Assembly (NCBI GenBank): GCA_964016885.1
Contig: OZ024740.1
Location: 286,254,001-286,318,000 of the forward strand
Source: Eledone cirrhosa
Taxonomy: Eukaryota
Length of the DNA: 64,000 nucleotides
Direction: 5' to 3'
A program made the position numbers and the translations under genes. Positions 5,305 to 60,839 of this stretch are shown one piece after another; position 1 is the first letter of the stretch, and every line of letters begins with the position of its first letter. The notes under the pieces are model-generated. The model was not told where the DNA came from. It ran no database searches and saw only the letters and a program-made list of their open reading frames with translations.

Positions 5305-5319
5305 TAATGCAAAAGGAAC

Positions 5320-5872
5320 TTTAGCAGTGTAGCAGTATGAAGTCGATAGTTGACAGTGTGGTAAAATGATTGTATCCTCATTGGATTGTCTTGTCGACAT
5401 AGACGTGAGAGAAGGTCCCTCGATCTATTTACCATCTTTGTATTTACAATATTCCTTTCGTCAGGTCGCCAATTCCAGCAGCATGGATTATAGATGTTAT
5501 TGAGACACGAGTAACATAATAATGATTTCAACAGCAGAAATTAGAGATGAAATGTATGTTTATTTTTGATGTAGCACAAACAATGTTTGTTAACTTATAT
5601 GGTTGAAGTTACATATAAAATGTGGTTACAAAAGGGAATGTGCCATTGCGGCGGAAAGCCGGCGAGGCTAGGGTGCAAAATCTCACCGTTACATTATGCA
5701 TGTTGTTGGTTCGAAGTTCCTGGTACAAGAGAGAGATTCTTCAAATCTTCGCGGGGAATTTCTTCCTCAGGGCGCGTAGGGATACATCCTCTTCTACTGG
5801 CGCTGATTGGCTGAACTGAGCCAAATCACGCACAGAGAATGTATGTGAGCCCGCGGAATGTAGGTCACTACC
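5320..5872 (-). repeat. 3' LTR (~553 bp)
   Basis: Near-identical to 7556-8108. Confidence 0.9.
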
Positions 5873-5982
5873 ATACCTCCGAGCAGATTTTTAGGCGAAA
5901 ATCGTAAACGAAGAAGCTAAGGACCCACAAGGAAGTCGATACAGATTATTGAATCAGCAAGAACAAATGCTGAAAGAGCACA

Positions 5983-6204
5983 TCAGTTTAAAAAAATAAT
6001 TGGGCAGAAGGCTGCATGCAAGAAAAAAAATGAGGCGCTACGGGCCGTGTTGAGCCGCTGTGTCAAATGACCAGTTGTTTTGTTGTTTACACGTGACCAC
6101 CAAAGGTCTAACAAAAACGGATAAAGTCTGACATGGGCAAAGTCGCTGTTCTTGCATTTAAAGTTAATGGTAAGTTCTGTACCAGTAGCTGTGGACGAAG
6201 CCAT
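5983..6204 (-). CDS. Hypothetical small protein in LTR element (ORF-C)
   Basis: accataATGG start overlaps the TAA of an upstream frame; 73 aa. No family recognised. Confidence 0.3.
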   Translation of the reverse strand: MASSTATGTELTINFKCKNSDFAHVRLYPFLLDLWWSRVNNKTTGHLTQRLNTARSASFFFLHAAFCPIIFLN

Positions 6205-6889
6205 TATGGTAGTTTACCAGTGCTGGCAAGAAGATGATGGGTAGGCGAGAAAATGTTGGCCTCCCAGATGTATTGCTGAATGTGCTAAGGAGCCAGGAAA
6301 AAATGGCTGGTTGCTTTGAAAAGAAAAAAAGCAAGTTTAATCTGTAGGTGGGTTGCAGTGTAAATTCCATAATTCGGGCGAATCCACAGAAGTGGCCGAA
6401 ATGCTGACAAGTCCAGTTCTATTTGCTGCTTTCCCAGCGAGTCGGGCAAAAACAGCAAGACGAAGGCCGTCATGGACGATCAGTGTGCACCGAGATACAA
6501 AACTGTTTGAGCTCAGCTGCAATTAGTATTCTCGTGTTGCGGTGCCTGTTTGAATCCAGTGGATTAAGCTCAATGAGCTGCTAGCATGTGACAGCACCTC
6601 AACCAGGTGAAAAGGGACTCGCAGAATATTACGTTTGAAGAACATATACCAAGAACAACATGTTGGTGTGTGACAAAAAAAATGTGTGCATATGCAGGCA
6701 TGTAAAACAGCAAAGTATGTGAATGAACAAAAACCATGAGCAAGCAAATAGCAAAAGAGCACAAAACAAGCAAATGCATTCTACAAAGAAATATGTGAAT
6801 GTAACAAACTGATAATTCAAAGTCGATCTAAGGGAGCAGAGAAATTGCTCAATAAGTTCAAAGTTTTTCAAAGTCAAATAGTTCACACA

Positions 6890-7135
6890 TCACCAGTGTA
6901 CAGACTTTCTGACACTAGCTCTATCTGAAAACTGAAAAAGAAGTTTGTTAATGCCGTTAGGGGTTAGATGTATGGTGTTTTTGAGAGTTTTCGTGGCCAT
7001 TTTACCGTCCTGCCACCTTGTGTGACATAAGGTTGTGTTGCTTGTTGTTAAAGCAAAGTCAATGAATCTTCCGTAGAGTAGCAGTCGAGCGCTGAAGAAC
7101 CCAGAGTCCAATATGGCAGCCACGTCTGACGCCAT
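6890..7135 (-). CDS. Hypothetical small protein in LTR element (ORF-A)
   Basis: ATG in good context (accattATGG), 81 aa; the frame reopens after the TGA and runs to 6629. No family recognised. Confidence 0.35.
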   Translation of the reverse strand: MASDVAAILDSGFFSARLLLYGRFIDFALTTSNTTLCHTRWQDGKMATKTLKNTIHLTPNGINKLLFQFSDRASVRKSVHW

Positions 7136-7541
7136 AATGGTGAGAAAACTACCGTCTCAATTTCTCGAGTCCCTGTGGTAACGAGACAGAAGGTATGGTG
7201 GTTACGTCGGTAAAGTTACAAGCCGTTTTGAAATTTCCGATGTGTGGTGGTTTACGTTGGTAAGGCTATGAAGCTGCCATCTCACTATTCCCTGTCGTTG
7301 GCCAGTGGCCAAACAATGCTGTCGCTGCTGCTGCTGCTGCTGCTGTCGTTGTTGTTGTCGAGTGTAGCCAGGACTTGTCGGTAGCCATCTTGAAATTTCC
7401 TCGTGGCGAAAAGTTTTTGAAATACTGCTAATTTTTCAAAAAATTTTGAAAGGAACATATTGTATTTTCGCAAGTTGCAAAAAGGCCGGCAACGTGGCAA
7501 TAAAAGTTCAACTGTATAAAAAAGGGCTGCGTTAAATTCTT

Positions 7542-7554
7542 ACGTTGGTCACCA
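7542..7554 (-). promoter_or_regulatory. Primer-binding site (tRNA-Trp-type resemblance)
   Basis: TGGTGACCAACGT on the minus strand, 1 nt inside the 5' LTR; resembles the TGGTGACCCCGACG PBS of Gypsy elements. Confidence 0.6.
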
Positions 7555-7555
7555 C

Positions 7556-8108
7556 TTTAGCAGTGTAGCAGTATGAAGTCGATAGTTGACAGTGTGGTAA
7601 AATGATTGTATCCTCGTTGGATTGTCTTGTCGACATAGACGTGAGGGAAGGTCCCTCGATCTATTTACCATCTTTGTATTTACAATATTCCTTTCGTCAG
7701 GTCGCCAATTCCAGCAGCATGGATTATAGATGTTATTGAGACACGAGTAACATAATAATGATTTCAACAGCAGAAATTAGAGATGAAATGTATGTTTATT
7801 TTTGATGTAGCACAAACAATGTTTGTAAACTTATATGGTTGAAGTTACATATAAAATGAGGTTACAAAAGGGAATGTGCCATTGTGCCGGAAAGCCGGCA
7901 AGTCTAGGGTGCAAAATCTCACCGTTACATTATGCGTGCTGTTGGTTCGAAGTTCCTGGTACAAGAGAGAGATTCTTCAAATCTTCGCAGGGAATTTCTT
8001 CCTCAGGGCGCGTAGGGATACATCCTCTTCTACTGGCGCTGATTGGCTGAACTGAGCCAAATCACGCACAGAGAATGTATGTGAGCCTGCGGAATGTAGG
8101 TCACTACA
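7556..8108 (-). repeat. 5' LTR (553 bp)
   Basis: Minus strand starts TGTAGTG and contains CCAAT and AATAAA; near-identical to 5320-5872. Confidence 0.9.
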
Positions 8109-8750
8109 GAACTCTATCAAAAAGAGTATCAAATTACTGCTACAGAATGACCACAGAGAAGATGAAGACTATGGAGATTGGGCAAACAACAGAGGACACC
8201 ACCTTGATGGTTGAAGAGGTGAGCCAATTTGCATACTTTTGCAGAGTTTTGTGCAATGATGGAGATGCTGAAACTGATGTTAAAGACAGAATCAGAAAGG
8301 TAGCTGCAGTATTTTAGTAAATCTACAAAATCTGCTCCATGAACACAGGTCACCAACACCAAAATCTGTCAGTACAATACCACTGTACTACCAAAGGCAT
8401 TATATATAAGTAAAATGTGGAATGTAACTGTGAAAATCACCAAAGAGTCAGATATCTTTCACCAAAAGTCCCTAAGAATTTCATACCAAGAACAACAGAA
8501 ATGAAGAAATCTTAAGAGCAATGTCCCCAATGACACAAGTAATGTTGTACAACCAAATTATTGGTGTGCAAAAAATAGTATTGAGACATACACCACCAGG
8601 TGGATATCACCTGTAGAAGATGAAGAAGCCCACAGGCTTAAATAGAATGAAATCTTTCATGGAGTTCTGAATGCTGCAAAAACCATGCAATTGATGAAAA
8701 CACTAGAAGAAAACTGTTGCCTGATGTGCAAATGTGTGAGGTGAACTAAC
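8109..8750 (+). mobile_element. LINE (RTE-like) C-terminal fragment, target of the LTR insertion
   Basis: EKMKTM...VEEVSQFAYF...DVKDRIRKVAAVF, then decayed sequence. Confidence 0.7.
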
Positions 8751-22607: not shown

Positions 22608-24312
22608 TGATCTAGATAAAATGTAGTTTGGGTTTGTGTCAGGTAAAAGTACCACAGACGTTCTTTTCCTTGTATGACAACTACAAGAGAAGTACCTAGC
22701 TAAAAGTAAACGCCTCTACTTAGCTTTTGTAGACCTGGAGAAAGCTTTTGACAGAGTCCCCTGCTCCATTATCTGGTGGGCTCTTAGAAAACTAGGTGTA
22801 GATGAATGGCTTGTGAGAGCTATACAAGCTATGTATAATGAAACAGTCAGTAAGGTTAGAATTAACAATGAATATTGTGAAGAATTTAGTGTAAAAGTTG
22901 GCGTTCATCAAGGCTCTGTACTTAGCCGCCTCTTATTTATTATTGCCCTTCAGGCTATAACAGAGGAGTTCAAGACCGGCTGCCCATAGGAACTCCTTTA
23001 CGCAGATGATCTAACGCTCATAGCAGAATCAATGGCTGAACTAGAGAAGAAATTCGAAACATGGAAGCATGGACTAGAATCAAAAGGCCTTAAAGTTAAC
23101 TTGTCTAAGACTAAAGTTCTAGTTTTTAGAAAGGAAAATAGGGCACAGGTGCCCTCAGGGAAATGGCCATGCTCAGTGTGTAGGAAAGGAGTAGGCAGAA
23201 ATTCCATTTTATGTCCCAAATTCAAAGTATGGGTACATAAAAGATATAGTGGGATCACAGGTAAACTATCTAAGAACGTAGACTTTATATGTGGCCAATG
23301 CTCATGTGCAATAAGTAGCAAGTGTCCAAAGGATATTAGCTCCTTCTATTGCCCAGATGGTTCTATAGAAATAGTAGACGCTTTCCGTTACCTGGGTGAC
23401 GAAATCAGCAGTGGTGGAGGGTGTTCTGAAAGTACAGTAGCCAGAGTCAGAACGGGATGGAAAAAGTTCAGAGAGCTTATACCGCTGTTGGCCACAAAAG
23501 GTTTCTCTCTAAAAATGAAAGGCAGATTGTATGATGCCTGTATACGAACAGCAATGCTACATGGCAGTGAGACATGGGCATTATGTGCAGAGGACCTGCG
23601 TAGACTGCAAAGGAATGAAGCATGCATGCTCCGTTGGATGTGTAATAGTAATATATGTGAACGGCAAAGCATAAATGAACTAAGTGAGAAATTAGGAATA
23701 AGAGGGATCAGATGCTGTTTACTTGAGAGAAGACTACGTTGGTATGGTCACGTGATGCGCATGAAAGACGACAGCTGCATAAAAAAGTGCAGGGCGATCA
23801 AAATTGATGGTAGTTACGGAGTAGGTAGACCCAGAAAAACCTGGGATGAACTGATAAATTCCGACCTCACACACATCTCTCTAAGACAATGTCTCTGGAC
23901 CGAGATCTTTGGCGCTACGCAGTAATACAGAAGACCCGCCTTGCCTATGTACAAAGCGAAACTTACAGTCAGTCGGCACCTCTTAACCAAATATACACCC
24001 CAATCCACTACCCCTACCCTATCCTCCCACTCCCACCAATAGCACGAGAAAATGAGATCGAGATCGTGTAGGTGTCACGACAAAAAAACACAGTCCATGC
24101 TGTAATGTGACCATGTAGGTAACACGGTAAAAAGTTCCCAGTTCCACATTGTAAATGTGGTTGGTGTTAGGAAGGGCATCCAGCCGTAGAAAACATGCCA
24201 GATAGTCCTATATGAGCGAGACACGGTCACCCGACCAGCCTTGCCTCAAGTGGGACAACTCCCATCTAACCCATGCTAGCGTGGAAAATGGACCTTAAAC
24301 GAAGATGATGAT
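22608..24312 (+). mobile_element. RTE-type LINE, 5'-truncated; best-preserved copy
   Basis: AFVDLEKAFDRVP, HQGSVLS and LLYADDL, then the 297-aa ORF at 23032-23925 and a (GAT)n tail. Confidence 0.92.
23032..23925 (+). pseudogene. RTE ORF C-terminal part with PHD-like finger
   Basis: ORF track; an in-frame TAG near 22987 separates it from the RT core. Confidence 0.85.
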
Positions 24313-50600: not shown

Positions 50601-51461
50601 TTAGCTGTATACTTTATGGAAAGTTCTATGGGATTTATACAAGCAAAGCGAAAATAAATCCGTACGTCTATTTATTATAGAATTAAAATTAGAGATAATG
50701 GTAAATTTCTCCGCTAGGCAGAGATTACATGTTCTGGATAGGGAAGAATTAAGGTAAGGAGAGGCGTTGCAAACCTTTCTCCAAGAAATGTTGTAGTTAA
50801 TATGTTTGTCCTTTAAGGACCATATGAGTTCTGAGAGTGCTGTGTTAGTTCTTTTAAGTTGGTATTTAAAAGAAGAATTGTGATTATAAAATCTTGCTTT
50901 AAAGGAAGTGGAAGTGGAACCAAAATAGGTAAAAGAAACCTTACATTCATACACTAAATTTTTATCAAGACATTCGGTACTAAGAGGACATTTAGTTCTA
51001 ATAGGGCAATTGCAATTACGATTAGAGAAATTACCAGAGTTATTAGCAAGTGACCCAGTATTATTTATAGAAGGAATTGGATTGGAGAAGTTCCTTACGA
51101 TAGGTGCTAAAAGTTCCTGATTTAGTTTGGTATTATGAACATTCGACAAAGTTACGTTTGACGTCGTATTTAAATTTACGGAATCTAGCCTAGAGTTAAC
51201 ATTGGCGTCGGGCTTACTATTGTTATTATTATGACTCTCAGTGTTGGATGGATATGATTTATTACTTAATATTTTAGTATTATGTTTTGAGATAATGTTA
51301 GAGATGTTGGAAATGGTGGAATAAGAGAATTTAATTGTATGCTTATTAAAGATCTTACTATAAATATGTGAAGGAGGGAAGCATTTATCTAAGGCCCTAA
51401 AAATTAGTTTAGGAATATTACTAATAATAGATAGAGAAAAAGGAGCGTATCCATCCAACAT
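50601..51461 (-). CDS. Penelope-like RT thumb, linker and GIY-YIG endonuclease (truncated, uninterrupted frame)
   Basis: KIFNKHTIKFSYS, CNCPIRTKCPL..ECL..NLVY...YFGST..FKARFYNH..SF and CNLCLAEK. Confidence 0.85.
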   Translation of the reverse strand: MLDGYAPFSLSIISNIPKLIFRALDKCFPPSHIYSKIFNKHTIKFSYSTISNISNIISKHNTKILSNKSYPSNTESHNNNNSKPDANVNSRLDSVNLNTTSNVTLSNVHNTKLNQELLAPIVRNFSNPIPSINNTGSLANNSGNFSNRNCNCPIRTKCPLSTECLDKNLVYECKVSFTYFGSTSTSFKARFYNHNSSFKYQLKRTNTALSELIWSLKDKHINYNISWRKVCNASPYLNSSLSRTCNLCLAEKFTIISNFNSIINRRTDLFSLCLYKSHRTFHKVYS

Positions 51462-51782
51462 TAATTATGTATTATCTTACAACGGTTTAAAAAATTTTCT
51501 CTGTGAGACAGTGTTTCTCAGTATTAAGATTATCCCTCTCTCTCTCACTCATTTTCTCCTCCTCTCTCACCCTTCCTTCTTATACTTCTCCACCGTCATC
51601 CTTTCCTTATTATTATATTTTTTTCTTCTATCTATATTCTTTCTTCCTCTTCCTTACCTGTTCCTTCCCCCCTTCCTTTCCTTTTTTCCAATCTCATATA
51701 TCCATCTTATTTTATTTTTCATATGTTGATTTAACACTTCACTGCTCGCAAGTGTTTTTTAAAGCTTCATATCATGTCTCCC

Positions 51783-56619: not shown

Positions 56620-58860
56620 AAGCTATTTCGGCGTTTAATGAAATTTCCCATCTTTCTGCATTTTTCTCCCGGCACGGCAGCCCTTTAGTTTAGCTTCTTT
56701 TTTTTTTGTTCTCTTTCGTGGGGTATCGTTGTTGATTTTTTTTCCGATCTCGCAGGAGAGACGGCAGCGAAACTGAGATTGAATAGCGAGACGATCAAGG
56801 CTTTTAACGGCGAAGGAGATGTGGCCTGGTTGAGAAAGGTCACATTGGTCGCCTCGCTGCAAGGCATTGACAACGTTACTGGTTTGATCGCTCTATATCT
56901 CGACGGGGATGCCCTAGCACTGTTCCTCGAGATGGATGAGATAGACCAACTGAACGCGGAGAGGATAGGGCAGCGACTTAAGGAAGCGTTCATCGAGGGG
57001 CCGTACGCTGCTTTTGCCAAGCTAGGCTGAGCGAGATGGAAGGGAGAGCACGTGGATGTGTTCGCGACAGAGTTACGGCGTTTGGCTACGTTGGCCGGAT
57101 TCGCGGTAGAACGCGAATGTGCCGTCCGATTGGCTTTTATGAACGGGTTCCCCGACGAAATCTCCGTGAAGCTCCAACAGCTGCCCGGCAACAGGGAGAT
57201 GAGCATGAGCGAGCTCATCGCACAGGCCCGCGTAATAACACAGGACATGAGGTGGAGTATTGCAGCGACGGAAGCCCATGGCAGTCGACAGCGACTGACG
57301 TATGACGAAAGGAGGCCAGCCGCTGTGAATAGTCGTCCGCGAGCGTTCGGAGGCAGGTGCCAGGGCTCGCACATGGCAGAGAGCGGAAGCCAGCTATAGT
57401 CTGGTATCGTTGCAAGCGACCAGTCCACCATCGCAAATAATTGCGACCATGGAAATGATCTAAGGAGGGGCTACTGCGCCGGTAGCGACCCCTGAAGGCG
57501 AGTAGAGGCGCCTTTGCAGTCGCTGCCCGTAGTGAAAGTGTTGGTGGAAGGGAAGCCATCGCGAGCACTCGTGGACACGGGTTGCACGACAACACTAGTG
57601 ACCACGGAGGTGGTTAAAAAGTGGAGCGGGATGAGCAGTATAAGGGCAGTCGACGGCAGGGACATTAGATGCAGAGGTACCAGCGAGGTGTCGATGGTGG
57701 TACGGGGAAGAGCAATTAGGCTTCGGGCGATTGTGATTGACCAGGTGATGGACGGAATCGATGTAGTAATGGGCATGGACACGATTGGCTGCCTTAAAAT
57801 CGGCATATCTGCAGTTACACGTGGATGAGAAGCTGTGAAAATATCAGCTGGTCAGGTATAAGGGCCAGACATACTGCCTGACCGGGCTTGGCTTCAGGTT
57901 GAACTCTGCGCCAAAAGTCATGGCGACGGTCCTCCAGGCCATTCTGGGGGAAAGCGGACAAGAGGAAGAGGGCCACCAACTCCTACATCGACGACATCTT
58001 GGTGGACGAGTCGGTGGTGTCAGCAGCAGAAGTCTCAGGCCACTTGGGAAGGTTCGGGCTGACCGCGAAACCGCCGGAGGCGACGGAAGGAGGAGCCGCG
58101 CTAGGACTCAGGCTGCAAAGGGATAAGACGGGCACACTCGTGTTTCGGAGGGGTAATGAAGTCTCGGAACTGGGACCCGATATGAATAGACGGGAACTCT
58201 TCTCAATGTGTGGTAAATTGTTGGGTCACTATCCGATCGCAGGGTGGCTCCAGATGGCATGCAGCTATGTCAAGAGACGAGCAGACGGAGTGAGCTGGGC
58301 TGACAGGGTTGGAGAGAGGACAGTAGCCATGATGCAGGAAATCGGGGAGAGGGTAAAGGCGAATGACCCAGTGAAAGGACGCTGGTACGTCCCCAAATCG
58401 GCGAGCGGAACCGTATGGTGTGATGCCAGCAGCATAGCGCTAGGGGTCACTCTGGAGATAGGGGGCGTCGAGGTCGAGGACGCAGCCTGACTCAGGAAGA
58501 AGGAGGACTACAGCCACATCAACGTGGCCGAACTGGATGCTGTGCTGAGAGGGGTGAATCTCGCCCTGAGATGGGGGTTGCGCATCATAGAAATCGGCAC
58601 TGACTCGGCCACTGTACTCGGATGGGTGAGATCAGTGCTTACCAGTGAGAGGAGGGTGCAAACGAGAGGGGCAGCAGAAATGTTGATAAAGCGCCGCCTG
58701 GGAACTCTGGGAGAGCTGTCCACTGAGTTCGGCCTGGAGTTGAGTGTGGTTTTTGTGCCCTCAGAGAAAAGCAGGGCAGACGTATTAACCAGAGTGAAGA
58801 AATCCTGGCTGGAAACACCAGGGGACGCAGAGAAGGGGATAGCGGCAGTATGTCGGCTGA
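56620..58860 (+). mobile_element. LTR-retrotransposon internal region: gag, protease, partial RT and RNase H
   Basis: Gag-like ORFs at 56779-57399; ALVDTGC protease; SYIDDILV; WCDASS...HINVAELDAV...TDS...ADVLTR. Several stops and an RT deletion. Confidence 0.85.
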
Positions 58861-60805
58861 GTGATTCGGTGGTCGACAAGGGCAGATATTTGAAGATGCA
58901 AGTCGCAAATTCGGCAGAAAGAGTATCCAACGATTGGAGTGCAGGTTGGTCTGCAGCTAAACGACCTAAGTCGATCTCCTAGGATGACGAGATGGAGCTG
59001 ATTGGCAAACGTGACAATGCGTCTGCAGCTATGTTATACAGGCCAGCAATGTGCTGGATATCATTTGTAAATTGCGAAACGTAATCCAGGTGCCTTGTCT
59101 CTCTGGGCGAATATCTGTCGGCTTTAGCCCTCAACGCGAAGGTCAGAGATTTGTGCTCGGTTAAAACAGTAAAATTTCTCCCCTCAAGAATGTGAGAGAA
59201 ATGTTTCACCGACAGATATATGGCTAATAATTCCCGCCCAAACGTGCTGTAACGCGTTTCTGCTGGTTTCAGCTTCCTCGAGAAAAATGCCAAAGGTTGT
59301 TGGTTTCCAGCGTTGAACTGCTGTAAAACTGCTCCCACAGCGGTATAAGATGCATCAACACAAAGCGAAAGCTTGGCCTCTGATACCGGGTGGGCTAGCA
59401 AAGATGAACTAGCGAGCGCTGTCTTGGCAGCCTGGAAGTCTTGAAGCTGTCCTTGTGTCAAGGAAATATCCTCATTCTTCTTAAGACGATTTTTCAAAAT
59501 GTCAGTAAGGGAAGATAGCAAATTAGCACAATGAGGAACGAAACGCCTATAGAAATTGATTAGGCCTAAGAAGTGACGCAACTGGTGAAGTGTAGTAGGC
59601 GGAGGTAAATCTTGTATGGCTTGAACTCGCTGAGGGAGCGGCCTAATACCTTCGGCGTCGATGAGGTGGCCTAAAAAATTTAGCGAAGTGGAACCGAAAA
59701 CACACTTTGCGGGATTCACACGAACGCGGTAATCCTGAAGTCGCCAAAATAAGAGATGCATGTGGCGCATATGCTCTTCCGGAGAGGAACTAGCGACGAG
59801 AATATCGTCTATGTAAGCATAAACGAAGTCCAGACCACGAGTGACTTCGTCTATGAACCGCTGAAAAGTGGTAGCGGCGTTCCTGAGTCTGATAGGCATG
59901 GTAAAAAATTCGAAGGATCCGAAAGGAGTTGTAATTGCCGTTTTCGGAATATCCCCCTTCCTGACCGGAATTTGGTGGTAGGCTCGCACTAAATCTAGTT
60001 TTGAGAAAATCTTACACCCCCTGCAATGAAGATGCGAAATCCTGGAGATGGGGAATGGGATACCTATCCGGGACGGTCATAGCATTTAACCTTCTATAAT
60101 CCCCAGTGGGTCTCCAGTCGCCGGAAGTCTTGGGCACCATGTGTAACGGTGAAGCCCAAGGGCTCGTAGATGAGCGAATAATGCCCAGCTGCAGCATATG
60201 GTCGAACTCGGACCGTGCTGCCTTTAATTTGTCCGCCGGTAAGCGGCGTGGACGCGAAAACACTGGAGCACCGGTGGTGGAAATGAAATGTTCAGTTGAG
60301 TGTGTTGGCTCAGTGACTCGAAAATTTCCATCGGTGAGCTCCGGGAAAGAACCTAACAACGAATGGTAGGCGTCTCCAGCGGCAGCGATGAAGAATATGG
60401 GGCTGACTGTTGGAGCATTGGCTTTCTGGCCACGAATTGAGAAACCGGTGATGTCATCCACCAGGCGTTGGCCACGGACGTCCACAGTCAAAGAGAAGTT
60501 GTGGAGGAAATCCGCTCCTAAGATAGGGTATGGCAAATCGGCAACCGTAAAAATCCACTTAAAATCCCTACGAAGATTTAGGAATTTGAGAGGAAGTGAG
60601 ATTTGCCCGTACGTCTTTATAGACGAGTGATTAACGGTCTGCAGAGTAACGGATGACTCTACGGGGGTATCTTTCAGGCAATGGACCAGCCGAATACTAC
60701 AGGAGGCTCCTGTATCCACGAGGAAATCTTTTCCCGACCTAAGGTCCTTAATGAAGAAATGGCGGTTTGGTGGCTTTATGTTGAGACAGAATTGCTTCGC
60801 GTTCT
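58860..60805 (-). mobile_element. Gypsy pol fragment (protease, RT, RNase H), CsRN1/Kabuki-like
   Basis: [46 protein letters not shown] and ADALSR; one frameshift in a G run near 60016. Confidence 0.92.
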
Positions 60806-60839
60806 CAAATATATAGTCCCCAGGGTGACGCAACTCCAT

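What the first reader, a model, noticed from the sequence alone, without database searches (positions are those of the whole stretch)
5320..8108. LTR element with no gag/pol carrying a compact cassette of small unknown ORFs
Seen: two 553-bp LTRs differing at about a dozen sites, a GAAC TSD and a TGG-starting PBS, so this unit integrated as a whole and fairly recently. The 1.7-kb interior has no gag, protease, RT or integrase motif. Instead, sense-strand frames are packed end to end. ORF-A runs 7135-6890 and reopens in frame to 6629 past one TGA. ORF-B starts at 6645 and runs through one TAA to 6337, with a shifted frame continuing to 6204. ORF-C runs 6204-5983. A and C both begin MAS after nearly the same acca(t/a)(t/a)ATGGC context. 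Inference: a non-autonomous retroelement mobilising a virus-like polycistronic cargo of unknown proteins, now partly decayed.
Basis: partly seen in the sequence, partly recalled or inferred. Interest (0 to 1): 0.75.

Follow-up and report, generated by a model that had tools for sequence, protein, structure and literature searches.

The report
Non-coding modular Gypsy hitchhiker element
This is one copy of an ordinary, abundant jumping element that has no genes of its own and likely borrows copying enzymes from related Gypsy elements; its supposed cargo genes are broken at the same places in all copies and show no sign of protein-level selection.

Summary
The LTR element is real: LTRs of 553/554 bp (12 substitutions, 1 indel), 4-bp TSD, TGT...AAA ends and a tRNA-Trp-type PBS, the published marks of the CsRn1 clade of Gypsy. 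It belongs to a young, abundant family (36 full-length interiors compared). The cargo reading fails. The stops at 6890 and 6523 stand in 36/36 and 35/36 copies, ORF-C's start codon exists in this copy only (1/36), no ORF-A/B/C frame shows synonymous excess, and 15-22 of 35 copies carry frame-changing indels. The interior is not free of pol: 7038-6964 is the last 24 codons of a CsRn1-type pol (71/75 nt identical) in another frame than ORF-A, followed by that family's 3' UTR to about 6717. Sister lineages swap this segment, the leader, the LTR body and the PPT, and keep an 840-bp core of unknown origin. Verdict: a modular non-autonomous CsRn1-type LTR retrotransposon, likely copied in trans and reshuffled by template switching. 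No gag-pol element with the same LTR was found among 53 examined. The scan had no earlier look-alike by sequence.

The parts
8109..8112 (.). target-site duplication, upstream copy (GAAC on +)
7556..8108 (-). 5' LTR, 553 bp, TGT...AAA termini; first ~140 nt shared by all lineages, body swapped between lineages
7542..7554 (-). primer-binding site of the tRNA-Trp type of the CsRn1 clade (imperfect in this copy)
   Evidence: consensus in PMC2582038 section 6
7228..7541 (-). non-coding leader with a CAA/CAG microsatellite (about 7360-7317) of variable length
6964..7038 (-). last 24 codons and stop of a CsRn1-type pol (integrase C-terminal tail), not in the frame of ORF-A, no catalytic domain
   Evidence: 71 of 75 nt identical to three gag-pol loci, 70 of 75 to a fourth; ends frames of up to 868 aa elsewhere; Pfam RT, RNase H, integrase in such a frame
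6717..6963 (-). 3' UTR of the same gag-pol family (about 84% identical, 18-24 gap columns)
5874..5882 (-). short polypurine tract; the PPT-proximal 55-60 nt occur in two exchangeable versions in the family
5320..5873 (-). 3' LTR, 554 bp
5316..5319 (.). target-site duplication, downstream copy (GAAC on +)

Best explanation
It is a non-coding, non-autonomous LTR retrotransposon with CsRn1-clade ends that is likely copied in trans by the Gag and Pol of autonomous CsRn1-type elements of the same genome. Shown: LTR-PBS-interior-PPT-LTR anatomy, 4-bp TSDs, many young copies, family-wide stops and neutral change in the small frames, a pol-tail plus 3'-UTR segment taken from a gag-pol family, and lineages that differ by swapped blocks. 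Inferred: the 5' LTR drives a full-length RNA; the RNA is packaged in helper particles; helper RT primes on tRNA-Trp at the PBS and on the PPT; helper integrase recognises the TGT...AAA ends and leaves a 4-bp TSD; template switching between co-packaged RNAs swapped the blocks, so the pol-tail segment is likely a footprint of a past helper (called family X here).
For: Ends, PBS and TSD equal the CsRn1 hallmarks (4-bp TSD, TGT...AAA or ATA, tRNA-Trp PBS); AAA end in 29 of 35 copies parsed, exact 4-bp TSD in 16 of 21 evaluable, LTR-pair identity median 98.3% (95.0-99.8, 33 pairs). Stops fixed: 6890 36/36, 6629 36/36, 6523 35/36 (1 gapped), 6337 36/36. No synonymous excess in A1, A2, B1, B2, B3, C (p 0.17-0.91). 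W versus Y lineages: 40 diagnostic substitutions spread 17/13/10 over codon phase (p=0.40) and 8 of 10 diagnostic indels not multiples of 3. All 10 family-X loci fetched match 7038 to about 6720 and nothing else of note; 6 of these 10 show the CsRn1 Gag CHCC signature, one with a stop in it. The Y lineage diverges at 7032-7042 and rejoins at 6715 in 13 of 13 loci or fragments that cover it, the same limits as the family-X match; both junctions lie in short shared CA-rich or T-rich runs (by eye).
Against: No gag-pol element with the same LTR or core was found (0 of 53 loci), so the present helper is not identified; all 10 family-X loci fetched have broken gag-pol frames. The origin of the 840-bp core and of 7555-7039 is unknown. 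The window copy has a real excess of 75-88 aa stop-free frames. Co-packaging and template switching are inferred; ectopic DNA recombination could give similar mosaics.
Confidence: 0.85

Rival explanations
1. Plain internal-deletion derivative: an autonomous CsRn1 element with this LTR and a long (1.1 kb) 3' UTR lost gag-pol, leaving leader, pol tail and UTR; the Y lineage then lost the pol tail.
For: Order leader / pol tail / UTR / PPT is that of an autonomous element; another CsRn1-type family here has an 820-nt 3' region.
Against: No such parent among 53 gag-pol loci; family X has a different LTR (local scores no higher than about the shuffle maximum) and a 3' UTR of about 340 nt; a 75%-diverged relic (L127) carries the Y-type segment next to the core at Y spacing, which suggests the pol-tail version is the later one.
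Confidence: 0.1
2. Decayed polycistronic protein cargo: the interior was a set of small genes.
For: Excess of 75-88 aa stop-free sense frames in the window copy; ATGs of ORF-A and ORF-B in 32/36 and 33/36 copies.
Against: Fixed stops, private ORF-C start, neutral change, frequent frame-changing indels; half of ORF-A is off-frame pol tail and UTR; no Pfam family over cut-off, no homologue for ORF-A or the 6473 frame, no usable Atlas hit for ORF-C; no spliced copies and no acceptor before the ATGs of A, B, C.
Confidence: 0.04

Closest known systems
CsRn1 clade of Ty3/Gypsy (CsRn1, PwRn1, AgCR elements; PMC2582038, passages and section 6 read; PMC3601003, passages read)
   Same: 4-bp TSD, TGT...AAA termini, tRNA-Trp-type PBS, PPT; pol tail from a family with the CHCC Gag signature.
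   Different: No gag or enzyme domains; only 24 codons of pol remain.
Non-autonomous LTR retrotransposons (TRIM/LARD continuum; 10.64898/2026.03.01.708851, abstract and sections 20, 27, 30 read; PMC10886601, passages read)
   Same: LTR-PBS-non-coding interior-PPT-LTR, young copies with TSDs, modular exchange between families, domain remnants, no LTR-matched autonomous partner, tandem and deleted derivatives.
   Different: 2.8 kb with 550-bp LTRs lies between classical TRIM (<1 kb) and LARD (>4 kb); animal host and CsRn1-type ends; no small-RNA gene or ribozyme in the LTR.

Membership tests
CsRn1 clade (Ty3/Gypsy) | 4-bp TSD | tested here: met
   window; 16 of 21 evaluable copies, 35 examined
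CsRn1 clade (Ty3/Gypsy) | LTR termini TGT...AAA/ATA | tested here: met
   29 of 35 copies end in AAA, 2 in ACA, 1 other, 3 not parsed; definition
CsRn1 clade (Ty3/Gypsy) | PBS complementary to tRNA-Trp | tested here: met
   first 8 nt match the published consensus in the window, longer match in L019, L082, L084; not compared with the host's own tRNA
CsRn1 clade (Ty3/Gypsy) | Gag with CHCC signature and Pol (PR-RT-RH-IN) | tested here: not met
   absent from the element; present in the donor family X. So it is CsRn1-associated, not an autonomous member
CsRn1 clade (Ty3/Gypsy) | RT tree placement of the donor family with CsRn1 references | not tested
   clade assigned from CHCC, PBS, termini and DUF7041 only
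Non-autonomous LTR retrotransposon (broad sense) | two LTRs, PBS, PPT, TSD, no functional transposition proteins | tested here: met
Non-autonomous LTR retrotransposon (broad sense) | amplified as a family in the non-coding state | tested here: met
   36 full-length interiors with the same structure; further lineages
Non-autonomous LTR retrotransposon (broad sense) | mobilisation in trans by a helper | not testable with these tools
   inferred from anatomy
TRIM (classical) | shorter than 1 kb | tested here: not met
   2789 bp; threshold
LARD | longer than 4 kb | tested here: not met
   2789 bp; threshold
TRIMp3 (Cassandra, Helenus, Ajax) or retrozyme | small-RNA gene sequence or hammerhead ribozyme in the LTR | tested here: not met
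   0 Rfam matches at E up to 1; 0 tRNA genes; degenerate tRNA-like promoters could be missed

The most novel reading that the evidence does not exclude
The family is a helper-promiscuous hitchhiker: a fixed cis-acting core (about 6400-5935, almost free of lineage-diagnostic change) plus the first 140 nt of the LTR travel with exchangeable blocks (pol tail and UTR, PPT region, LTR body, leader) picked up from different CsRn1 helpers, so the swapped blocks record which helper packaged each lineage and the core marks an unknown packaging or dimerisation signal.
Probability: 0.25. Interest if true: 0.45.

Novelty: new member of a known kind. Interest (0 to 1): 0.17.

Why it matters
Mostly for repeat annotation: an abundant 2.8-kb non-autonomous LTR superfamily that domain-based tools miss and whose chance frames could be called as genes. 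As a side benefit, the captured pol-tail segment is a natural record of recombination with a gag-pol family, which bears on how non-autonomous LTR elements choose helpers; the packaging signal of CsRn1 elements is, to my knowledge (recalled, not searched), not mapped. It is not a source of new proteins.

Tried and rejected
Antisense coding: longest antisense frame 61 aa, no excess. Splicing of the interior (lead from e1-8598689): the large deletions inspected (L028, L084, L088 and five of 25 nt or more among 36 copies) do not have GT..AG ends. Structured RNA: sliding-window folding z-scores from -2.4 to +3.0, nothing strong; no Rfam or tRNA match. Pfam DUF7011 hit on 6522-6340 is below its cut-off (15.8 vs 27 bits). 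Partner search: the pol family also present in this window (L036-L038) shares only a microsatellite, short terminal motifs and the pol-tail motif; 40 DUF7041 loci (of 150 scored, 1226 candidates) gave four short matches to the element, three in opposite orientation and one at the locus edge. Genome DNA searches list only the 40 best places, so a rare partner can be missed. Expression: no RNA holder listed; three contig sets of one sample hold the family, not independent support. Literature: three searches found no description of this family; Repbase and Dfam were not available, so it may already be catalogued. Supplements were not read (PBS alignment of PMC2582038; those of the preprint are closed). 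One search stopped on a script error and was redone.

Full report
Observation. The element lies on the minus strand, 8108-5320. The LTRs are 553 and 554 bp and differ by 12 substitutions (8 transitions) and one single-base indel; a 4-bp duplication (GAAC on +) flanks it; the LTRs start TG and end AAA; the PBS begins one base behind the 5' LTR. The window copy has 8 sense stop-free frames of 75 aa or more against 2.8 in shuffles, but none of 90 aa or more (1.6 expected), and its longest (88 aa) is below the shuffle mean of 113. Stop triplets are mildly scarce on both strands of the interior and in the LTR alike, and interiors of two sister lineages show no excess at 75 aa.

Family. The interior had 1362 first-look candidates in the genome (40 scored), the LTR 2342 (40 scored); these are not copy numbers. 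I compared all 36 full-length interiors listed. Of 35 with an LTR pair, 33 aligned over more than 350 nt with median identity 98.3% (95.0-99.8); 16 of 21 evaluable have an exact 4-bp TSD; 29 of 35 end in AAA. PMC2582038 (passages and section 6) gives 4-bp TSDs, TGT...AAA or ATA termini, a tRNA-Trp PBS and a CHCC Gag signature as marks of the CsRn1 clade; PMC3601003 (passages) lists a matching 3' integrase motif.

Are the small frames genes? No. The stop at 6890 is in 36 of 36 copies, 6629 in 36, 6523 in 35 (1 gapped), 6337 in 36; so they are not decay of this copy. The ATG of ORF-A is in 32, of ORF-B in 33, of ORF-C in 1 of 36, the window copy. Net length changes that are not multiples of three occur in 21 of 35 other copies across ORF-A, 22 across ORF-B and 15 across ORF-C. 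Synonymous changes are as many as expected from a null that keeps base and CpG context: A1 20 vs 24.5, A2 22 vs 21.9, B1 10 vs 10.2, B2 21 vs 17.2, B3 8 vs 9.8, C 20 vs 25.0. Against my reading: the unnamed frame from ATG 6473 gave 26 vs 18.4 (p=0.026, one of 11 tests), falling to p=0.18 with 60 copies from four lineages. Between the window lineage (38 sequences) and the Y lineage (11), 40 diagnostic substitutions fall 17/13/10 by phase (p=0.40) and 8 of 10 diagnostic indels are not multiples of three (three neighbours at 6686-6673 sum to 12). None of 12 interior frames has a Pfam family over cut-off; ORF-A and the 6473 frame have no homologue of similar length among 5.8 billion proteins; ORF-C has no usable Atlas hit.

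What the interior is. A weak translated match to the end of a pol frame led to a 27-codon frame at 7047-6967, different from ORF-A's. Searched in the genome, it ends or lies in open frames of 200 aa or more in 21 of 150 scored places. Ten such loci were fetched; all ten match the element from 7038 to 6713-6789 (77-87%) and, apart from a 23-nt hit, nowhere else. One of their frames carries RT, RNase H and integrase, and its upstream frame DUF7041; 6 of 10 show the CHCC signature. The pol tail is 70-71 of 75 nt identical, the following UTR about 84%. This gag-pol family (X) has its own LTR, unrelated to ours by local alignment, and all ten loci have interrupted gag-pol frames.

Modularity. Four non-coding lineages share the first 140 nt of the LTR and the core 6715-5935. 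S (8 loci fetched) replaces 7239-7046 and has a different PPT region. Y (13 loci) has another LTR body and leader, keeps 7227-7040 at about 91%, and carries an unrelated 190-nt block in place of the family-X segment, leaving at 7032-7042 and rejoining at 6715. T (3 loci) is a deleted variant. In the core, lineage-diagnostic substitutions cluster in 6706-6436 while 6400-5935 has only 5 of the 40, a mosaic pattern. By eye, the S-type PPT region resembles family X's and the window-type one resembles that of another CsRn1-type family. A 75%-diverged relic has the Y-type block next to the core, so the family-X segment is likely the later arrival. The source of the core was not found.

Helper. None of 53 gag- or pol-bearing loci has this LTR or core as its own part (3, 10, 40). 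A second CsRn1-type family has the same terminal signals and 1051-aa pol frames in 12 of 112 scored places, so compatible enzymes exist in the genome. The sugar-beet preprint (abstract and sections 20, 27, 30) reports the same picture as common: modular exchange, domain remnants, and only 10 of 115 families with an LTR-matched partner.

Mechanism. Shown: anatomy, recent amplification, non-coding evolution, block exchange. Inferred from standard LTR-retrotransposon biology: transcription from the 5' LTR, packaging in helper particles, tRNA-Trp and PPT priming, integration through TGT...AAA ends, and RT template switching between co-packaged RNAs at short shared runs (junctions). The recurring ATGGC that looked like a start context is over-represented with its reverse complement (7 vs 2.9, p=0.025) and resembles the YY1 core site (recalled, motif chosen after seeing the data); it may be a regulatory motif.

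Verdict. A real but ordinary element: new member of a known kind, interest 0.17. Three paper searches found no description of this family; repeat databases were not at hand. PMC6238403 (passages) shows CsRN1 to be common in some invertebrate groups; the host was not identified here. The scan holds no look-alike by sequence; one note from another genome prompted the negative splicing check.

Noticed in passing
window 58979-60839 (-): Frame-shifted CsRn1-type pol fragment (protease, RT, RNase H) of a large family (3546 candidates), next to a different Gypsy-like RT/RNase H fragment at 57903-58982 (+) (by eye).
   Followed up: partly
L036:6859-7682, L037:6872-7684: The 3' region of this gag-pol family is about 820 nt, holds a CAG-rich microsatellite and a 165-195 aa stop-free sense frame; stops are depleted on both strands. 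Not tested for an extra gene.
   Followed up: no
L088 (G000:C28:117474500-117484400): Tandem array of about five 1.8-kb units, 99% identical, each holding an internally deleted piece of this element's interior.
   Followed up: no
window 7393-7000 and 6307 (-): Four YY1-like sites (motif recalled; 4 vs 0.5 expected, p=0.001, defined after the fact); also 3 in a Y-lineage interior.
   Followed up: partly
G000:C1:193856189-193856429 and relatives (L079, L089-L100): Y lineage: a separate young non-autonomous family (398 candidates, 96-100% identity in its private block) whose private block has no known source.
   Followed up: partly
window 22990-23925 (+) and 50601-51464 (-): A LINE-type RT fragment and a fragment resembling a Penelope-type GIY-YIG endonuclease (labels recalled from the translations, not scanned).
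   Followed up: no
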